In this document: positions 6,934-59,108 of the stretch, one piece after another
Position numbering within the stretch: the first letter of the stretch is position 1
Layout of the letters: each line of letters opens with the position of its first letter
Source: Eledone cirrhosa
Lineage: Eukaryota
Reading direction: 5' to 3'
Assembly: GCA_964016885.1 (NCBI GenBank)
Contig: OZ024740.1
Location: 393,328,001 to 393,392,000, forward strand
Length of the DNA: 64,000 bases
Translations under genes and position numbers: made by a program
The notes under the pieces: generated by a model
Databases searched by the model: none
What the model was told of the DNA's origin: nothing
The model's input: only the letters and a program-made list of their open reading frames with translations

Positions 6934-7082
6934 GGAGGTGAGTTTTATTGTAGTACAATAAATTATCCCACAGGTTTGTTCTAATTGTTCTTCTTTGAAC
7001 TTAAATTTATGGTTTGGTACTTCTGAAGTGATTGGCTGGTTCAACAAATTGAATAAGAAAAATAAACAAAAATTTATTCAAT

Positions 7083-8695
7083 TTGATATTGCCAGCTACT
7101 ATTCTTCTATTTCGCCCTCACTTCTCAACAATGCTCTATCTTTACAAATATTCAGACATTACCACAGATGAACTTCACATCATTCTCACTGCACGTAAAA
7201 CCATCCTAGAGTTCAACAATCAATATTGGACCAGAGCTGATACCTCTAACAACTTTGACATCACAATGGGAACATCCGATTCATCCCAATTGACAGATTT
7301 AATTGGTATCTTTATTTTGAACTCTTTCAATCGGAAAATTCCTCAACTTCGCGGTGGAATTTATCGTGACGATGGACTCTTTACTATCTTAAATTGCAAC
7401 ATATTTAACCTTAATATTATTAAGAACAATATACATAATCTCTTTAACCAACATAACTTAAAAATTGAATTTGATAACAGCATCAAACTAGCTAATTTCT
7501 TGGATGTATCTCTTAATCTTGACACTGGCCTATATTACCCTTACCATAAAAACAATGAGAACCTAAATTATGTTAATTTTAAATCTAACCACCCTACTAA
7601 TATTAAGAATGCTATAGTTAGTAATATTGGAAAAAGAATATCTAACCTATCTTCTAATAAAAACATCTTTGATGCTAACGCCAATTACTATAATAACGCG
7701 CTTTCTAAACCCGGTTATCCTGAAAAAATCAAATATAGTAAAGAAACAAATTCTAGAAGATCTTACAGTAGAATAATTAATCATGATCATTCCAATAGCT
7801 TTAATAAAAGACCTAGATACAAAAACATAATCTGGTATAATGCTCCTTTCGCCATCTCTATTAATAATAATATTCCTAAATTATTCTTTAGTGCCTTAAA
7901 TAAATGCTTCCCTCCCTCACATATCTATAGTAAAATATTTAACAAACACACTATAAAATTCTCCTATTCGACCTTCTCCAACATCTCCAACATTATCTCT
8001 ACAATAAAATACTAAATACTAAATCTCTTCCTTCCAACACTGAATATCATAATAATAGTAATAGTACTCCCGACGTCATTGTTAACTCGAGGCTAATTTC
8101 TGCAAACCCAAATACAACGTCAAACGCAACTTCGCTAAATGTTCTTAATCCCATTCTAAATCAAGAAACTATTATTCCTATCGTAAATAACTTCTCCAAT
8201 CCAATCTCTTCTATAGATAACACTAGGTCACTTGTTAATAACTCTGTTAATCTCTCTAATTGCAATTGCAATTGCCCTGTTAAAAATAAATGTCCTCTCA
8301 ACAACCATTGTCTTGAAAAAAACTTAATCTACGAATGTAAAGTTATAACTGACACCAATTCCTTTACCTATTTTGGCTCCACTTCCACCTCCTTTAAAGC
8401 TCATCTTTATAATCATCATTCGTCTTTTAAATACCAACTTAAAAGAACCAACACGGCACTCTCAGAACTCATATGGTCCTTGAAAGACAAACATATTAAC
8501 TATAACATCTCTTGGAAGAAGGTTTCTTCTGCTTCTCCATACTTGAACAGTTCACTATCCAAGACATGCAATCTCTGTTTATGTGAAAAATTTACCATTA
8601 TATCTAATTTAAATTCTATAATAAATAGACGCACTGACTTGTTTTCTCTCTGCTTGCATAAATTCCACAGAACATTCCATAAAGTATACAGCTAA
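7083..8695 (+). pseudogene. PLE RT + GIY-YIG endonuclease ORF broken by frameshifts
   Basis: ORFs 7083-8015 and 8480-8695; the endonuclease frame extends upstream of 8480. Confidence 0.85.
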
Positions 8696-9659: not shown

Positions 9660-9730
9660 TATTTTATCTGACGAAAACGCAAATGTTATTGCATGATGAT
9701 ATTTGTTTTTGAAATGCGCATAATAAAATA
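9660..9730 (+). ncRNA. Type I hammerhead ribozyme in PLE 3' end
   Basis: TATTTTAT-CTGACGA-stem II-GAAA-TGCGCA-TA-ATAAAATA: 8-bp stem I, palindromic stem III. Confidence 0.88.
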
Positions 9731-34395: not shown

Positions 34396-34750
34396 AAAAA
34401 GGGATGAAATCGAAAATGCAACTGAAGTCTTATTTTTTTTTAAAATATATATATTTATTTGGTTCCTTTACCGGTTTCGCAGTTCTTCTGCTTTTCAAAA
34501 GGTGAGTTGAGATGGAGGGTCTGTGGTTTTTCTCACAGATGTGAGAAAAACCACAGACACTCCATCTCAACTCACCTTTTGAAAAGCAGAAGAACTGCGA
34601 AACCGGTAAAGGAACCAAATAAATATATATATTTTAAAAAAAAATAAGACTTCAGTTGCATTTTCGATTTCATCCCTTTTTGTTTAGACTTCCACTCGTG
34701 TAGGACACCTCGGTTATTTTTCATTTTGTAAAAAAAACCTCACTTTCTAA
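34396..34750. mobile_element. Fold-back (palindromic) HHR-bearing mini element
   Basis: Near-perfect palindrome 34396-34681 centred near 34538, with a ~70-bp unique right extension; in (TA)n. Confidence 0.85.
34575..34612 (+). ncRNA. Minimal type I HHR with U3-A8 core (mirror copy at ~34465-34502 on minus)
   Basis: CCTT-TTGAAAA-GCAG AAGAA CTGC-GAAA-CCGG-TA-AAGG. Confidence 0.75.
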
Positions 34751-35444: not shown

Positions 35445-35772
35445 ATTTCATTTTACGTCCGCTTTTTCCCTGCTTGCGATGGTGGGACGGGAACTGATTT
35501 TGGCTTGATTTCTACAGCTTGATGCCCTTCCTAACACCAACCTCATTTACAGTGAGTGCTGGGTGGTTTTTTGCCGTGGCACCTCCACGACCACTTTGCA
35601 GTGGAATGATAGGGACCCCTGTCCTATCATCTCATTTCTACAGCTGAGTAAACTGGAGCAATGTGAAATAAAGTCTCTTGCTCAAGGAAACAACACATCA
35701 CCCGGTCTGAGAATTAAACTCACAACCTTTCGATTGCAAGGCCAATGCTCTAACCACTAAGCCATATGCCTC
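35445..35772 (-). mobile_element. tRNA-derived SINE with RTE tail
   Basis: Homologous to 627-1016. Confidence 0.85.
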
Positions 35773-35785
35773 CATTATATATATA

Positions 35786-35861
<76 letters not shown>

Positions 35862-35893
35862 CATATATTTATATATGTATATATGTATATATT

Positions 35894-35924
<31 letters not shown>

Positions 35925-36000
35925 ATATTTATATATGTATATATTTATATATATATATATTTATATATATATATATTTATATATGTATAGGTTGTAATAT

Positions 36001-36188
36001 AATTGTTTCTACTTTTGGCACAAGGGCAGCAATTACCCAGTACATTACTGTTACTTTATTTTATCGACCCCGTAAGGATGAAAGGCAAAGTTGACCTCGT
36101 CGGGATTTGAACTCAGATCATAAAGGGACGTAACTATGCTGGAAAGCATGTCCGAGCCTCTACCGATACTGCCAATTCACCGCCCTTT
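36001..36188 (-). mobile_element. tRNA-derived SINE
   Basis: Homologous to 22081-22268. Confidence 0.88.
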
Positions 36189-36318
36189 GTGCGAAATTTC
36201 ATACATACATACTTACATTTCATACATACATACTTACTTACATACATACATACTTACATTTATATATGTATATATTTATATATATATATATTTATATATA
36301 TATATTTATATATATATT

Positions 36319-36350
<32 letters not shown>

Positions 36351-36544
36351 TATATATATATATATTTATATATATATATTTATATATATATATTTATATA
36401 TATTTATATATATATTTATATGTAAGTATGTGTGTATACATACATACTTACTTTCATACATACATACTTACATTTATATATGTATATATTTATATATATA
36501 TATATTTATATATATATATTTATATATATATTTATATATATATA

Positions 36545-36585
<41 letters not shown>

Positions 36586-36586
36586 T

Positions 36587-36623
<37 letters not shown>

Positions 36624-36864
36624 ATATTTATATGTAAGTATGTGTGTATACGTACATACATATATGTATACAGACGTACAGTAGCATGCATATATATATA
36701 TATATATACATACAGGTACACATACATATATGCACGTATCAGTTTAGCGGACGCTTATTATAACGCCGCTTTGTTCGTTTGTAAACGAACTGAAAAGCCT
36801 GAATTTTTATGCCGTACGGTGTTAAGGCAACCACGTCACTTTTTTGTTCAACACTGACACAGGA

Positions 36865-36907
36865 ACGATGTACTAGTTTCAAGCTTGTTAGCTATCATCA
36901 GCACCGT
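36865..36907 (-). ncRNA. Type I HHR
   Basis: Minus strand: ACGGTG-CTGATGA-TAGCT AACA AGCTT-GAAA-CTAG-TA-CATCGT. Confidence 0.85.
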
Positions 36908-37147
36908 ATACCCATCTGCCAGATAGTTGAACGTTCGAAAGTATATACTTTCCTTATGAAAATTAACGGCTGAGCAGCCTAATTTGCATATCGAGTGAGC
37001 TAAGTCGGTCAGGCATACCGAAAACGATAAGTTGAAATAAAATGAAAACGAAATTTCATTTCTCACTCTTAGTACGGCACTTACTTAAATGTAAGTATGT
37101 GTGTATACGTACATACATATATGTATACAGACGTACAGTAGCATGCA

Positions 37148-37203
<56 letters not shown>

Positions 37204-37300
37204 CAGGTACACATACATATATGCACGTATCAGTTTAGCGGACGCTTATTATAACGCCGCTTTGTTCGTTTGTAAACAAACTGAACAGCCTGAAGGGTAT

Positions 37301-37343
37301 ACGGTGCTGATGATAGCTAACAAGCTTGAAACTAGTACATCGT
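37301..37343 (+). ncRNA. Type I HHR
   Basis: ACGGTG-CTGATGA-TAGCTAACAAGCTT-GAAA-CTAG-TA-CATCGT. Confidence 0.85.
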
Positions 37344-37657
37344 TCCTGTGTCAGTGTTGAACAAAAAGGTGACGTGGTTGCCTTAACACCGTACGGCATA
37401 AATTCAGGCTGTTCAGTTTGTTTACAAACGAACAAAGCGGCGTTATAATAAGCGTCCGCTAAACTGATGCGTGCATATATGTATGTGTACCTGTATGTAT
37501 ATATATATATATATGCATGCTACTGTACGTCTGTATACATATATGTATGTACGTATACATACATACTTACATTTAAGTAAGTGCCGTACTAAGAGTGAGA
37601 AATGAAATTTCGTTTTCATTTTATTTCAACTTATATATTTATATATATATTTATATA

Positions 37658-37729
<72 letters not shown>

Positions 37730-37747
37730 TATACATATATATATATT

Positions 37748-37783
<36 letters not shown>

Positions 37784-37801
37784 TATACATATATATATAT
37801 T

Positions 37802-37832
<31 letters not shown>

Positions 37833-38032
37833 TTATATATATATATATTTATATGTAAGTATGTATGTATACGTACATACATATATGTATACAGACGTAC
37901 AGTAGCATGCATATATATATATATATATATACATACAGGTACACATAAATATATGCACGTATCAGTTTAGCGGACGCTGATTATAACGCCGCTTTGTTCG
38001 TTTGTAAACAAACTGAACAGCCTGAAGGGTAT

Positions 38033-38075
38033 ACGGTGCTGATGATAGCTAACAAGCTTGAAACTAGTACACCGT
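38033..38075 (+). ncRNA. Type I HHR
   Basis: Same motif with a perfect stem I (ACGGTG/CACCGT). Confidence 0.85.
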
Positions 38076-39676
38076 TCCTGTGTCAGTGTTGAACAAAAAG
38101 GTGACGTGGTTGCCTTAACACCTAAATACAGAATTAACGAAAGGTTGTAACTGTAGAAACAAAGCAAACTGCCCATTAAAAGGAAATTGTCTTGTTAACA
38201 ACATAGTTTATAAATGTAAAGTTAAAACTAAAGATTCTATTTGCTCATATATAGGAGCTACTTCTAACAATTTTAAGGTAAGGTTTAATACCCACAAACA
38301 TAGTTTTAAAAATGCCGCACTGGCTAATACAACATCTCTAGCAGAAAAAATTAATAGTTATAGAAATAAGAATATAGAATATGATATGACCTGGAGTGTG
38401 CTCAAAAGAGCCACCCCTTATCAAAATAATAGAAATGAATGTAGATTGTGTTCCCAAGAACTATTTGAAATAATGAAATCTAAGGATATCCTATTAAATA
38501 AGCGACAGGAATTAATTATATCGTGTAATCATAAACTGAGAAAAACATTTAAATATTATAAACCTAATTAATAATATATATTTTAGAAATTAATATATAA
38601 ATTAATTTAAATGTAGTTAACCTATAATTTAATTTAATTAAAATTCTACTACAGATGAAATTAAAAAATATCGTATAATCATAAACTGTGAAAAACTTTT
38701 AAATATTATTAACATAATTAATATATACTTTGGAAATTAATATATAGATTAATTTTAGTTTATTTAACCTTTTATTAAAATTCCTTTACATATGAAATAT
38801 AACAAAATATCGTGTAATTAATAACAGAGAAATACTTTTTAATATTATAAACCTAATTAATATACAATTTAGAAATTAATTTTAATTTAGTTAACCTATA
38901 ATTTTAATTTAGTTAGCTTAAAATTAAAATTCTAATACAGATGGATTGCAGAATATCGTGTAATCATAAACTGAGAAAAACTCTTAAATATATACCTAAT
39001 TAATATATTCTTTACAAATAAATATATAGATTAATTTTAATTTAGTTAACCTATAATTATATTCTACTATAGATAAAATACAAAATTTTGCTTTAATTAT
39101 TATAAACCTAATTAACATATACTATAGAAATTAATATATAATTTTTAATTTAGTTAACCTATAATTAATATTCTACTACCAATGAAATACTTAATTTGGC
39201 TTTCCCTATTACAAAATTCATTTCCTAAAATTGATACCATCATGTTAATAATTTTAATTTAGTTATGCTATAATTAATACTCTACTACTGTTTAACTTCA
39301 AAATTCCGCTTTATAAACCTAAGTAGTATACACCTTAGAAATTAATATATTAACTATTTTTACTTTAATTAACCTATAATTAATAGTCTACTTATATTAA
39401 AATACATAATTTAGCCTTCTTTCTTACAAATAACATTTCCTAATACTGACACTACTATGTAAACACATATTATGATTTAACTGCAGATTAATATTCTATG
39501 TTCCTTGAAACCTATATTTACTATTTCCCACTAATAATTTTAATCCCCCCCCCCCAATAATTATTCGTATTTATAAGCGTGGATGTATGTATGTGTATGT
39601 AAGTGTGCATGTATGTTTGTGTGTTTGTATGTGAGTATAAAAATACATATGTGCGCATGTAAATATGTGTGTATGA

Positions 39677-39736
<60 letters not shown>

Positions 39737-39825
39737 GTGTATGTATGTATGTGTATGTATTTGTAGAGATGTGTGTATGTATGTGTATATATGTGCATAA
39801 GTGTCTGACTGTGTGTATTTATTTT

Positions 39826-39900
<75 letters not shown>

Positions 39901-41294: not shown

Positions 41295-42293
41295 CTATTG
41301 GGGTGATAACCCGTTTAGTTTTGGTTTAAATTTGTTAAGGAATAGATTTTCTTTGTTTATTCTTTGTTGTTGTGTGAACGAATCTGAGCACTTGTAGAAG
41401 GGGAAGATTTTAAAGTTGGGTAGTGTCATTCCTGCGCAGTTCGCAATATGGCTGCTCAAGGGGATTTTTCTTGTGTTAGCGTCCCGGATTTGTTGGCGGT
41501 GGATGGTCATTCTTTTGCGTAATGAGGTGCCCGTCTGTCCTATGTAGTTGTGTTTGCACCCACCGCAAGTTATTGCGTAAATCAAGTTCTCCGAGTTGCA
41601 GGTGAAATTGTTTTTTACTGTAAATGTTTGGCCATCTTTGAATGTAAATGTTTGTCCTTCAGTGAGGTAGAGGCACGTTCCACAGTTTGTTCTACCACAT
41701 TTGGTAACTGTAGGGTTGAGGATTGGTTTGGGTATATTTGGTCCAGTGAGAATGCGTTTAAGTGATTTGGGTTGTCTTTTACTTTTAAGGATCTTGTGTG
41801 TTTCAAGAATAGACTTCATTTTTACATCTTTAAGTAGGATGGGGAGGTTTTTGTGTAGGTGATCAAACATTTCGGTATTTCTGGGGTTGAAAGTGGATAC
41901 ATATGGCAGGGTGTTGAGTGTGGTTTTCTGTTTTGGATTGTTAAGTTGATGGGGATTTAGGTGTTTTGCCCTGTCTATTCCATTGTTGATTATTTCAAGT
42001 GGAAAGGCTCTTAAGATAAGGGTGTCTTTTAGTTCCTTTAGTCTTTGCTCCCGTTTAGGTGGATCTGATACTATGGTACATATACGTTTGGCCAAATTGT
42101 AAGGAATGTTAAGTTTTGTATGTTTTGGGTGACTTGATGTGAAAAAGAGGTATTGCTTGGAATCTGTGGGTTTATAGAATATATCTGTATCTAATTTCCC
42201 GTCTATTACAGAGATGAGAATATCCAAGAAGGCTAATTCCTTAGGATTGGATTCCATTGTGAATTGTATGTTATTATCTATGTTGTTTATCAT
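41295..42293 (-). CDS. PLE RT thumb + GIY-YIG endonuclease (partial)
   Basis: 332-aa ORF with a CCHH-type GIY-YIG domain. Confidence 0.88.
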   Translation of the reverse strand: MINNIDNNIQFTMESNPKELAFLDILISVIDGKLDTDIFYKPTDSKQYLFFTSSHPKHTKLNIPYNLAKRICTIVSDPPKREQRLKELKDTLILRAFPLEIINNGIDRAKHLNPHQLNNPKQKTTLNTLPYVSTFNPRNTEMFDHLHKNLPILLKDVKMKSILETHKILKSKRQPKSLKRILTGPNIPKPILNPTVTKCGRTNCGTCLYLTEGQTFTFKDGQTFTVKNNFTCNSENLIYAITCGGCKHNYIGQTGTSLRKRMTIHRQQIRDANTRKIPLSSHIANCAGMTLPNFKIFPFYKCSDSFTQQQRINKENLFLNKFKPKLNGLSPQ

Positions 42294-52528: not shown

Positions 52529-54233
52529 CACACAGACACACATACACACTCACATATATATATATATATATGTGTATGTGAGTGTGCGCACACACACATA
52601 TATACACACACACATACAAACACACACAAACACATACATATGCATACGTGCACACACACACACATATATCACATAGATACGAAGATAAACATATAAATAG
52701 AGAGACATACATATATATACACAACACATATACACATACATACATACACGCATATACATATACATACATATATACACATATATATATTCCTATATATACA
52801 AGCATACACATACATACACATATATACACATACATACACATATACATACAACACATTCACATACACATACATATATAATACATATATATACATATATATA
52901 CATACATATGTATGTACAATCATATATACACACACAATCTTACATTCATATTTGCATGCTCATATATGTATTTTTATATTTAGATATAAATACCCAAACC
53001 TATATAGACACCTACCTACATATATATTCATACATAGACGCTTACAAATACAGATGATAATAGTATGGGGGAAAGGGGGGGTTTGGAGAAGGGGATCAAA
53101 GTAAATATATGTTTCAAGAAACATATAATATTTTCCGTATCTTAATTCAATGTATGTTCTTACATATTTTCAGTGCTAGGAAATACGAAATCTATGCATC
53201 TCAAAATAAATAAGTATACCATTAATCATATGTTAACTAAACCAAAGATAGTCAACATATTGATTTCTAAGGTGTAAATTAGTTAGGTTTATAATATTTG
53301 AAGCAGAATTTTGAAGTCAAACAGTAGTAGATTATTAATTACATTATAACTAAATTAAAGTTAATAACGTTATGGTATCAATATTAGGAGATGAATTTAG
53401 TAATAGGGAAAAGAAACCCAAATAAAAATAAAATAAAGTATTACATCGGTAGTAGCATATAAATTATATGTTAACTAAATTAAAAATTATATATTTATTT
53501 CAATAGTATACGTTAATTAGTATATGTTAATTAGGTATACAATACATAAAGCAGATATTGTATTTCATCAATAGCATAATATAATTATATGCAAATAAAA
53601 ATCAAAATTAATACGCATACATATACATATACATACACATACACATATACATACATATACACACATATATATATATATATACATATATATACATATATAC
53701 ATATATACACACATAAACATACATACAGATACACATACACAACACACACATATACATATACATATACATATACATATCTTATTCAAAAAATTGCACAGAA
53801 TATATTAACTAGGTATATATCCAAAACACATCCCATTCTATGATTACATGACATTCTGCAATTCGTCTGTATAAGGATACTAATTTTAAGCAAATTAAAA
53901 TTAAAGTTTTAGGTTGATTAAAACTAAAACCAAATAATAAATATATTTCCAAAATGTATATTAATTAGGTCTATAATACTAAAAATTCTTTCTCCGTCAT
54001 TGGATACATGATATTATTTTGTTATATTTTATCTGTAAAAGAATTATAATAAAAGGTTTAAATAAATTAAAATTAATCTATAAATTAAATTACTAAGTAT
54101 ATATTAGTAATATTTAAAGGTTTTTCACAATTTATGATTACATAATATTTTCTCATCTGTAATAAAATATTAATTAAATTAAATTTATAGGTTAACTAAC
54201 ATTTAAATTAAATTAATTTCTAGAATAATGTTA

Positions 54234-54980
54234 TTAATTAGGTTTATAATATTTAAATGTTTTTTTTAGTTTATGATTACACGATATAATTAATTCCTGT
54301 CGTTTATTTAATAAGATATCCTTAGACTTCATTATTTCAAATAGTTCTTGGGAACATAATCTACATTCCTTTCTATTATTTTGATAAGGGGTGGCTCTTT
54401 TGAGCACACTCCAGGTCAAATCATATTTTATATTCTTATTTTTATAACTATTGATTTTTTCTGCTAGAGATGTTGTATTAGCCAGTGCGGCATTTTTAAA
54501 ACTATGTTTGTGGGTATTAAACCTTGTCTTAAAATTGTTAGAGGTAGCTCCTATATATGAGCAAATAGAATCTTTAGTTTTAACATTACATTTATAGACT
54601 ATGTTGTTAACAAGACAATTCCCTTTTAATGGGCAGTTTGTTTTGTTTCTACAGTTACATCCTTTCGTTAATTCTGTATTTGAGGAGATATTATTGTTAA
54701 TTTGATGTACTGGTGGTATACTTATGGTTTTCTTACATTTATATGCATTATATGCACTTATATTTTGTTTTATGTTATTTGTTGTAGAGTATGAGAATTT
54801 AACTGTAGACCTATTTAAGATTTGATGGTATTTGTGGTTTGGCGGGAAGTTTTTCTCAAGGATATAAAAAAATTTTTTAGCAATATTATCCTTAACTTGT
54901 AAATTAAAAGGAGCATTATACCAAGTAACTCGTCTATTACGGTTTCTATGTTGTTTATTATTTTTATTATTTTTATAGGT

Positions 54981-56610: not shown

Positions 56611-56817
56611 TTTTTGTTTTTAGTCAGTCAGGAACTAGAGAAAAACACAATGGAAAGCATCCAGCAAATAGCAAACTCCATCCACCAGAGCATTAGAGCT
56701 ACTATAGACTACCCAAGTAGACACCCCAACCATTGATTACCTGTACTAGACACAGAGCTCTGGTTAGACACCATTAACAACCAAAAACAAATCCTCCATT
56801 CCCATTATGCCAAACCC

Positions 56818-57711
56818 ATGACTTCCAAACATCTGATCCACCGCAACTCGGCCATTTCGGACCATACCAAAATCAACATACTGATTGCGGATTTGGTACG
56901 GGTGATGAGAAATGTGTCCCGCATGTGCAACCCCGAAGAACTAGAGAGACACATACAACACTTCATCCACCGTATGCAGTTCTCTGGCTACAATCAGAGA
57001 GATAGAATTAGAGTGTATAGAGGAGCCAGAACCAAATGGGAAAAAATGGTAAATAATGACATAAATGGGACCTGCCCCTTGTATAGGAGCAAATTTTGGA
57101 ATAGAATAGAAAGAACTAAGAACAAGGCCAATAGAATAAACTCATGGTATGATAGCAATAAATACCAGAGTGTAATGTTCATCAATACAACCCCTAGAGG
57201 CGAACTAGCCTACAAATTTAGAAGGGCCCTAAATAAACATAAACTCAATATTAAGATAGTAGAAAGACCAGGTACCTCCGTAAAAACACTTATTAGCAAG
57301 ACATACCTGTTCCAAAGACCCTCATGTATAGATAAGAAATGTATAACCTGTAAAATAAGCCCCCATATTAACTGTAAAACTAGAAATGTAGTGTATAGCA
57401 TAAGATGTACTGAAGGACAATGTAGAAACAAAAAAAATATAGTGTACATAGGTGAGACAGCTCGTAGTATAGGGGAACGAATAAATGAACACTGGCGAGA
57501 CCTTCAAGATAATAAAGAATCATCTGTGCTCTACCAACATGCTAAGATAGAACACAGGGGTAAATTAGAGAACATAGAAATAAAAATAGAATCCACACAC
57601 AGAAAAGATGCAATGTTTAGGCAAATTACAGCGGCAGTAAGCATAAAAGAATTACAACCAAAATTAAATAGAAAATATGAGTGGAACAGTAACATCACAA
57701 CTTACAATTAA
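56818..57711 (+). CDS. PLE RT C-terminus + GIY-YIG endonuclease (partial)
   Basis: 297-aa ORF. Confidence 0.85.
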   Translation: MTSKHLIHRNSAISDHTKINILIADLVRVMRNVSRMCNPEELERHIQHFIHRMQFSGYNQRDRIRVYRGARTKWEKMVNNDINGTCPLYRSKFWNRIERTKNKANRINSWYDSNKYQSVMFINTTPRGELAYKFRRALNKHKLNIKIVERPGTSVKTLISKTYLFQRPSCIDKKCITCKISPHINCKTRNVVYSIRCTEGQCRNKKNIVYIGETARSIGERINEHWRDLQDNKESSVLYQHAKIEHRGKLENIEIKIESTHRKDAMFRQITAAVSIKELQPKLNRKYEWNSNITTYN

Positions 57712-57919
57712 GGACAAAATGAAAACACACACACACATAGAACAAACAACCAACCAACAATAAATAAATAAATAAATAAACAAATAGATAAATGAACACA
57801 AACACACACAGACACCCGGATGTGGCGCATGCGCAAACTGAGTACACAACACACACACAGAAACAAAATGGCGTAGGACAGAAGAAAGGAAAGGCACAGA
57901 AACAAAGAAAGGAATCCCC

Positions 57920-57964
57920 AGTCACTGAAGAGGTCACAGAGTGTGTGACGAAAGGACTATGACT
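57920..57964 (+). ncRNA. Type I HHR (slightly degenerate)
   Basis: AGTCA-CTGAAGA-GGTCACA..TGTGAC-GAAA-GGAC-TA-TGACT. Confidence 0.75.
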
Positions 57965-58145
57965 ATATATAAACAACTATCTGGTTGTGGAACCAACCAA
58001 CCAACCAGAAATTTATAAATTTATACATATATATATATATTCATATATATATATATATATATTCATATATATATATATTCATATATATATATATATATAT
58101 TCATATATATATATTCATATATATATATATTCATATATATATATA

Positions 58146-58489: not shown

Positions 58490-58590
58490 TCATATATATA
58501 TATATATATTCATATATATATATATATATATATTCATATATATATATATATATATTCATATATATATATATATATTCATATATATATATT

Positions 58591-58962
58591 CAATTCGATT
58601 CTCTAGAAAGGCCGGAAGATAGGTAAATATTGCTGATGAGATGTAACAACATCGAAACTAGTCCAATATTCCTTGTCTGGCTTTCTGGAGAATAGAGGAA
58701 AGGTGTTTCCTCAAAAACCAGTATGACTCTAAAAACCGGTTTGTCTGTGTGTTTACATACAGAATAGCTGGACACTCACAGTAAAGTGACCAGTGAAAAA
58801 CTCGGTACATCTACATATGTACACGTGTGTGTATTCATATGCATACTAGTATTTCAGTATACATATGTGGATGTACATTTTTAACTTAATTGTTTAAGCG
58901 TCAGTCATACAAAAGTGAGTTACAAACAAAACGAAATTTAATTTCGTTTCGTTATTTGTTTT
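58591..58962 (+). mobile_element. Non-coding HHR-bearing mini element in (TA)n
   Basis: ~370-bp complex sequence bounded by microsatellite; contains a perfect HHR. Confidence 0.8.
58626..58670 (+). ncRNA. Type I HHR, canonical GUC site
   Basis: AATATTG-CTGATGA-GATGT AACA ACATC-GAAA-CTAG-TC-CAATATT. Confidence 0.92.
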
Positions 58963-59108
58963 CATATATATATATATATTCATATATATATATATATATG
59001 TTCATATATATATATATATTCATATATATATATATATATGTTCATATATATATATATATATATATTCATATATATATATATATATTCATATATATATATA
59101 TATATATA

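What the first reader, a model, noticed from the sequence alone, without database searches (positions are those of the whole stretch)
36634..38121. Second HHR mini-element family as tandem and fold-back ~457-bp units
Seen: about 1.4 head-to-tail units on minus (36634-37294), a polarity switch to plus (37295-37632), then another inverted/forward pair with the same junction (CCTGAA|GGGTATACGGTG). There are three HHR copies, stem I varies between G-U and G-C, and there is no coding capacity. Inference: tandem permutation suggests a circular or multimeric RNA template, and the inverted-then-forward layout matches PLE-type insertions. Minimal HHRs with palindromic stem III (CTAG) are known to work as dimers.
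Basis: partly seen in the sequence, partly recalled or inferred. Interest (0 to 1): 0.75.

Follow-up and report, generated by a model that had tools for sequence, protein, structure and literature searches.

The report
Two-ended hammerhead retrozyme with U6-like promoter
This is one folded-back, partly duplicated copy of an abundant 457-base non-coding repeat that carries a hammerhead-ribozyme motif and a likely U6-type promoter, and that is likely pasted into TA repeats by Penelope-like retrotransposon enzymes working from both ends of a DNA cut.

Summary
In detail: 1.39 inverted units, a fold-back junction, 0.76 forward unit, a partial repeat of the pair, and three hammerheads (HHR). The family has 10,650 exact HHR matches in this 3.0-Gb genome and is a non-LTR retrozyme.

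Corrections. The repeated junction occurs only here (local duplication). The G-C stem variant is private (1 of 167). A Hydra-clade Penelope endonuclease fragment starts at 38124. The window's other HHR mini-family is a relative.

Family evidence. Copies end at two fixed sites about 59 nt apart, mostly in (TA)n. Of 38 resolved fold-backs, 37 use one site per arm, fitting priming from both ends of a cut. 5' ends avoid the HHR cut (1 of 142), so the template was circular or an uncut multimer; this is unresolved. Each unit carries the upstream box of the host's U6, U6atac, MRP and tRNA-Sec genes, but with TATA spacing 41 instead of 45-47. The unit was not seen as a coding element's pLTR, and the partner is unidentified. 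This copy likely cannot release a monomer. The scan noted the two ends and the U6-like box before, on sister families. Cleavage, circles and promoter activity are untested.

The parts
36634..37294 (-). Inverted arm, 1.39 units (V224>457>1>~394), ending at the short 3' site in TA-rich DNA
36978..36990 (-). Box TATGCAAATTAGG matching the upstream box of host U6/U6atac/MRP/tRNA-Sec genes
36938..36951 (-). TATA-like element 41 nt after the box (host genes 45-47); predicted start about 36917-36912, at the 5' base of HHR stem I (inferred)
36862..36913 (-). Type I hammerhead 1, predicted cut after GUA at 36871
36684..36719 (-). Internal (TA)n tract of the unit, itself a target for nested insertions at other loci
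37286..37304 (.). Fold-back junction 1 (V224 / V111-114, GAA microhomology)
37295..37634 (+). Forward arm, 0.76 unit, ending at the long (tail) 3' site; carries hammerhead 2 (37295-37346)
37576..37634 (+). About 59-nt tail between the two fixed 3' ends (V398-V457)
37635..37854 (.). Interrupted (TA)n spacer resembling the left flank of the first block
37855..38122 (.). Local partial duplicate: inverted 0.39 unit, same junction (38018-38036), forward V114-209 with hammerhead 3 (38027-38078, private G-C pair)
38124..38571 (+). 5'-truncated GIY-YIG ORF end of a Hydra-clade Penelope-like element, joined to the unit through CC microhomology; a different family from the unit
38572..39897 (+). Part of the 3' UTR of that Hydra element (AT-rich tandem repeats), ending in (TA)n without its own pLTR/HHR

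Best explanation
This is a fold-back copy of a young 457-bp non-coding hammerhead repeat (a non-LTR retrozyme) that is likely transcribed from a U6-like promoter box inside each unit and likely copied into (TA)n by an endonuclease-bearing Penelope-like element acting in trans. Steps: (1, inferred) the box plus TATA start RNA at V110-115, the 5' base of HHR stem I, reading through tandem units. (2, inferred) Paired minimal HHRs cut, and the product may circularise. (3, shown as a genomic pattern) Copying starts at two fixed sites, V398 and V457, one for each end of the target cut; the two copies run variable lengths through the HHR site and join head to head, giving the fold-back with a tail on one arm. 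(4, junction uniqueness shown, mechanism inferred) At this locus the insertion and its left flank were partly duplicated later, probably when a Hydra PLE fragment became joined at V209. This copy has the box followed by only one same-strand HHR, so it likely cannot release a monomer.
For: 3' ends of 188 non-edge arms in 95 loci: 81 tail (V452-457), 67 short (V388-402), 26 in the internal TA, 14 other; four TA units follow directly in 69 of 81 and 49 of 67. Of 58 fold-backs, 38 had both ends resolved: 37 short+tail, 1 tail+tail, 0 short+short; p=1.4e-10 against 50:50; 9 of 9 in the set not selected on the tail. This matches the in vitro PLE that cuts and extends both strands and starts at two sites bounding the tail (PMC11167929, parts 1-2). 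Coding Hydra families here also show two TA-flanked ends. Arms share haplotype in 25 of 31 informative fold-backs versus 470 of 1655 random pairings. HHR fold across 13 variants: 93% of cells paired, 6 of 15 pairs with two-sided change, slid controls 30-46%. Box: PWM score 20.2 versus 17.1-20.6 for the five training genes, 0 of 1000 shuffles; kept in five sister units (0-5 of 1000); 0.5% variation versus 1.1-1.7% in most other segments. Junction unique to this locus.
Against: TATA spacing is 41 in this family (40-41 in sisters) versus 45-47 in all seven host genes carrying the box. The training genes were chosen because they carry it: 3 of 16 U6 hits, 1 of 6 U6atac, 1 of 1 MRP; RNase P (0 of 1) and U2 (0 of 4) lack it. 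Sister units contain T5-T6 runs that should impede Pol III read-through; this family has at most T4. No partner PLE sharing sequence with the unit was found, and a Neptune-type element also shows two TA ends (by eye), so the clade is open. A monomer circle is not proven: 4 of 13 rare variants shared across arms occur in only some laps, position-matched in L106, and long arrays show post-insertion duplication patterns. The HHR fold is no more stable than shuffles (z 0.3-0.9). In the 2026 preprint 8 of 9 Xenopus retrozyme dimers did not cleave in vitro. The tail-selected set is biased against short+short pairs, and about 3 pairs have junctions in low-complexity DNA.
Confidence: 0.72

Rival explanations
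1. The same PLE-mobilised element, but copied from uncut multimeric read-through RNA; the HHR is weak or regulatory and no circle is needed.
For: L106 has position-matched different laps in both arms, and 4 of 13 shared rare variants are lap-specific. HHR cleavage was not needed for insertion in vitro and unprocessed RNA was the dominant substrate (PMC11167929).
Against: L118 (3 rare variants in all 4 laps) and L136 fit one monomer template. The HHR fold is kept by two-sided changes across subfamilies. Circles are shown for coral, mussel and axolotl retrozymes (PMC7229834 discussion).
Confidence: 0.4
2. The unit is the pLTR of an autonomous PLE and these are its truncated ends.
For: The layout is PLE-typical; Xenopus retrozymes match PLE pLTRs (preprint); an endonuclease fragment abuts the unit here; many PLE families in this genome were not examined.
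Against: Arms wrap V457>V1 for up to 6.8 units with no ORF between; none of 95 loci showed the unit in register with a PLE ORF. 0 of 30 loci of the abutting Hydra family carry the unit within 1.5 kb, and its long-ORF copies carry a different, oversized HHR motif upstream.
Confidence: 0.1
3. The box is not a promoter, or serves Pol II as in newt satellite 2, and units are transcribed from host promoters.
For: Spacing is 4-6 nt short of host genes; T runs in sister units; newt satellite 2 is described as Pol II with an snRNA promoter (PMC2220036 passage).
Against: A 12-nt exact match to host U6 and tRNA-Sec boxes, U2 genes lack it, it is kept across families that diverge by a third, and it points at the HHR 5' base.
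Confidence: 0.3
4. The second block is an assembly artefact.
For: It sits in low-complexity TA DNA, and no listed contig bridged it.
Against: 4 substitutions and different TA lengths separate the blocks; the flank motif occurs three times with variants; the family and the fold-back form are genome-wide.
Confidence: 0.05

Closest known systems
Metazoan non-LTR retrozymes (Cervera and de la Pena 2020, PMC7229834: passages and Discussion seen; Li, Clavereau and Pollet, bioRxiv 10.64898/2026.07.22.740005: parts 1-3 of 5 seen, supplements not seen)
   Same: Short non-coding tandem units, one type I HHR per unit, dispersed monomers to multimers, co-occurring with PLEs that are proposed as mobilisers.
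   Different: Here there is direct insertion-signature evidence for PLE chemistry (two fixed ends, one per arm) and a U6-like box. No parent pLTR was found, and circles and cleavage are not shown.
EN+ Penelope-like elements, Hydra clade (Craig et al. 2021, PMC8557442: passages, section 11 and supplement rows seen) and the PAc mechanism (Frangieh et al. 2024, PMC11167929: parts 1-2 of 4 seen)
   Same: (TA)n targeting, inverted plus tandem layout, tail at one end, two start sites, HHR.
   Different: The unit has no ORF, its tail is about 59 nt rather than 30-40, and it shares no pLTR with the Hydra families examined. A tail on one of two inverted pLTRs was already noted in rotifer PLEs (PMC3846280 passages).
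Schistosome HHR SINE-like repeats and newt satellite 2 (seen only through passages of PMC6765202 and PMC2220036; Coats et al. 1994 was not held)
   Same: HHR tandem repeats carrying their own promoter, so only tandem copies can propagate.
   Different: The schistosome repeat is described as Pol III and the newt repeat as an snRNA-type Pol II promoter. Here the box matches upstream elements of U6-class genes and not U2.

Membership tests
non-LTR retrozyme | Short tandem units with a type I HHR in each unit | tested here: met
   Arms up to 6.8 units with 7 HHRs; 28 of 191 arms with two or more; fold supported across subfamilies
non-LTR retrozyme | No protein coding, no LTR structure | tested here: met
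non-LTR retrozyme | Dispersed multicopy family | tested here: met
   10,650 exact HHR 33-mers; 863 exact tail 37-mers
non-LTR retrozyme | Self-cleavage | not testable with these tools
   Core intact in nearly all of about 165 copies; activity needs an assay
non-LTR retrozyme | Expressed as circular monomer RNA | not testable with these tools
   Needs RNA data; lap-variant patterns are mixed
PLE-mobilised insertion | Inverted plus direct layout with a tail at one end | tested here: met
   37 of 38 resolved fold-backs
PLE-mobilised insertion | Microsatellite target | tested here: met
   118 of 148 fixed ends followed directly by four TA units
pLTR of an autonomous PLE | Unit flanks an RT-EN ORF in register | tested here: not met
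   0 of 95 unit loci; 0 of 30 plus 11 loci of the abutting Hydra family; a sample, not a census
U6-class (type 3) promoter | Upstream box like host U6-class genes | tested here: met
   score 20.2, 0 of 1000 shuffles
U6-class (type 3) promoter | Box-to-TATA spacing as in host genes (45-47) | tested here: not met
   41 in this family, 40-41 in sisters
U6-class (type 3) promoter | Pol III transcription from the predicted start | not testable with these tools
   needs 5' end mapping and inhibitors
Hydra-clade PLE (abutting fragment only) | RW(K/R), DKT, CxCx5C linker, CxxC and CxH motifs in the endonuclease | tested here: met
   All present in an 828-aa family member against the description in PMC8557442 section 11; Pfam gave no hit; no tree built

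The most novel reading that the evidence does not exclude
A superfamily of over 23,000 hammerhead repeats has captured the host's U6-class promoter box, makes its own RNA starting at the ribozyme, cuts it into monomer circles, and is copied by a dimeric Penelope-like enzyme that primes both ends of a cut at two dedicated, non-interchangeable RNA sites, one per subunit, sometimes on two different RNA molecules (as at L026). That would be a complete, testable life cycle for animal retrozymes and in vivo evidence for asymmetric two-end priming in PLEs.
Probability: 0.3. Interest if true: 0.75.

Novelty: new variant of a known kind. Interest (0 to 1): 0.5.

Why it matters
How animal retrozymes are transcribed and which enzyme copies them is proposed but not shown in the papers I read. 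This family is young and abundant enough to read the mechanism from the genome. The near-strict pairing of one short and one tailed end per fold-back links the in vitro two-site, two-strand PLE reaction to real insertions. The U6-like box names a concrete promoter to test and would explain why only tandem copies propagate. The locus itself is an ordinary, probably inactive copy.

Tried and rejected
Rfam scan: among the 150 of 229 rows shown, the three HHRs here were not listed; only the HHR at 58615 and microsatellite-driven miRNA hits appeared. Pfam found nothing for the endonuclease fragment. The repeated junction as a mobilised composite was rejected: 2 matches, both local. The L105, L103, L102 and L106 ORFs as parents were rejected: they are neighbouring or nested PLEs with other ends. 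Enrichment of 5' ends at the HHR cut (1 of 142) or at the predicted start (3 of 142 in V108-116) was not found. Apparent 5' peaks at V1 and V393-398 were set aside because palindromic microhomology and alignment edges can explain them. The 30-unit sister array is not evidence of rolling-circle copying, since its variants show nested duplication. RNA search: no RNA holder listed. Contigs of four runs covered parts only and no listed piece bridged the junctions, which is uninformative. Sequence look-ups in earlier notes were blank. The U2 gene upstream region as a model for the box was rejected.

Full report
Observation. I read 35500-39500 and mapped it against itself. I number the 457-bp unit so that V457 is the longer 3' end and the predicted hammerhead (HHR) cut follows V156. 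The locus is: TA-rich flank; minus arm 36634-37294 (V224>457>1>~394, 1.39 units); junction with GAA microhomology; plus arm 37295-37634 (V111/114>457); interrupted (TA)n; a second minus arm 37855-38026 and plus arm 38027-38122 (V114-209) with the same junction; then, from 38124, the end of a GIY-YIG ORF. Three HHRs lie at 36862-36913 (-), 37295-37346 (+) and 38027-38078 (+). The G-C stem I variant is in 1 of 167 copies covering that column.

Family. The window lies on C1 of G000 (3.0 Gb). The HHR 33-mer occurs 10,650 times exactly and a tail 37-mer 863 times; a looser pattern that also takes sister families gives 23,037; reversed controls gave 0. Median divergence from the majority base is 2%. 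Sister units of 420-430 bp (79-86% identical) and 466-469 bp (66-71% over two segments, including the window's HHR unit at 58590-58970) share the layout. Across 13 HHR variants the type I fold keeps 93% of cells paired, with 6 of 15 pairs changed on both sides and slid controls at 30-46% (related sequences inflate the shuffle test). The isolated motif folds no better than shuffles, as expected for a 2-bp palindromic stem III that is reported to need a dimer (PMC4209133 passages).

Insertion signature. I analysed 67 loci picked by the tail pattern (the first listed places on C1) and 31 picked by the HHR region. Arms under 88% identity were dropped, leaving 191 arms in 95 loci, 3 of them at locus edges. 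Of 188 3' ends, 81 are at V452-457, 67 at V388-402, 26 in the internal TA tract and 14 elsewhere; 118 of the 148 fixed ends are followed directly by four TA units. Of 58 fold-backs, 20 had an unresolved end; the other 38 were 37 short+tail, 1 tail+tail and 0 short+short (p=1.4e-10 against 50:50). Tail selection biases against short+short but not against tail+tail, and the HHR-selected set gave 9 of 9 mixed. This window fits: short on the left, tail on the right. A purified Poseidon PLE cuts and extends both strands and starts at two RNA sites bounding the tail (PMC11167929 parts 1-2). I infer that each target end primes at its own site. Coding Hydra families here also end at two TA-flanked sites (6 and 4 of 10; 13 and 4 of 21), as does a Neptune-type element by eye, so the chemistry is PLE but the clade is open.

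Template. 118 of 191 arms span an HHR and 28 span two or more; 1 of 142 5' ends lies within V150-162 (those starting in the internal TA were excluded). Cleaved linear monomers are therefore not the usual template. Both arms share haplotype in 25 of 31 informative fold-backs, versus 470 of 1655 random pairings; five differ at one site, including this window, whose arms also differ in a poly-A length, and L026 differs at 6 of 7 sites, so two RNAs can contribute. Of 13 rare variants shared across arms, 9 are in every lap, but only L118 and L136 involve multi-lap arms; 4 are lap-specific, position-matched in L106. Long arrays show duplication after insertion (L107, L108, a 30-unit sister array). 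Circle versus uncut multimer stays open.

Promoter box. All sister units keep ATGCAAAT-type and GTATATA-type motifs ahead of the HHR. Host U6 (3 of 16 hits examined), U6atac (1 of 6) and MRP (1 of 1) carry TATG[CG][AT]AAT[TG]AG at -76 to -78 and a TATA at -31; RNase P (0 of 1) and U2 (0 of 4) do not. Many U6 hits without it look like promoterless retrocopies (inference). Two tRNA-Sec genes, not used in training, show the same box at -79 with spacing 47 (my count). A matrix from the five genes scores the unit 20.2 (genes' self-scores 17.1-20.6; 0 of 1000 shuffles) and five sister units at 0-5 of 1000; the box varies at 0.5% versus 1.1-1.7% in most other segments. Either anchor puts a start at V110-115, the 5' base of extended stem I. 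Against it: spacing is 41 rather than 45-47, and sister units hold T5-T6 runs. I reached this, which showed that the scan had noted it on sister families; those notes are not independent support. Precedents are the schistosome Pol III repeat and the newt snRNA-type promoter (passages). Searches listed no paper on a U6-type box in retrozymes (listings, plus passages of PMC7229834 and PMC6466107); one search listed no PLE paper using the term twin priming. The library lacks most subscription papers.

Is it a pLTR? The abutting ORF belongs to a very abundant family (150 scored of 64,057 first-look candidates; frames up to 866 aa) with RWR, DKT, CxCx5C, CxxC and CxH motifs, matching the Hydra clade description. 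None of 30 loci has the unit within 1.5 kb, and among 11 long-ORF loci only L097 has an unrelated 82% copy. Its upstream repeat holds a different, oversized HHR motif (by eye). No unit arm in 95 loci continued into a PLE ORF in register. This is a sample, so a rare parent is not excluded.

Local history. The junction 19-mer occurs twice in the genome, both here, while junctions elsewhere vary. The second block repeats the left flank and lacks one unit; it differs by 4 substitutions and in TA length, which argues against an assembly duplicate. It joins the Hydra fragment through CC microhomology. Either the truncated Hydra copy switched onto nearby DNA and recopied it, or the block was duplicated and then cut by the Hydra insertion; I cannot separate these. 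Only 21 of 188 arms have the box followed by two HHRs; this locus has the box followed by one, so it likely yields no monomer.

Verdict. A real, ordinary copy of a non-LTR retrozyme family, a published class (PMC7229834; preprint 10.64898/2026.07.22.740005). Two family-level features go beyond the papers I read: near-strict one-site-per-arm pairing and a U6-class box with altered spacing. Cleavage, circular RNA, promoter activity and the partner enzyme are untested. New variant of a known kind; interest 0.5.

Noticed in passing
window 58590-58970: HHR mini-element of a 466-469-bp sister family, 66-71% identical to this unit over two segments, with the same box and two fixed ends; a 30-unit array of it lies at L173-L174.
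   Followed up: partly
window 56626-57990: Truncated PLE of another type (RT end plus GIY-YIG, 93% to the L106 ORF) with an HHR motif at 57925.
   Followed up: no
window 54116-54929 (-), 6938-8692 (+), 41313-42263 (-): Second copy of the abutting Hydra family, a copy of a second Hydra family with an HHR motif at 9668, and a Neptune-type fragment.
   Followed up: partly
window 36190-36480: Reiterated short pieces of the unit's short 3' end in both orientations, inside an approximately 210-bp duplicated TA block; suggests repeated local slippage or aborted starts.
   Followed up: partly
L091, L095-L097 upstream of the ORF: The Hydra family carries an HHR-like motif with an oversized stem II region of about 105 nt and a very long microsatellite-rich 3' UTR.
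   Followed up: no
L104:2580-5434; L105:1208-1410: The unit's internal (TA)n is itself a target: a sister-family fold-back and a full Hydra element are nested in it.
   Followed up: partly
L026: Fold-back whose two arms come from different subfamilies (6 of 7 diagnostic sites differ).
   Followed up: partly
L193-L195, L228, L234, L248-L249 versus L213-L215, L235, L247: Host U6-class genes share an octamer-like box at about -77, while U2 genes have a different element (CAGTGG-like) that also appears upstream of the RNase P match.
   Followed up: partly
window 34496-34581: Near-perfect 86-nt inverted repeat, unrelated to the unit.
   Followed up: no
loci fetched: More than ten further HHR sequence families occur in the fetched flanks.
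   Followed up: no
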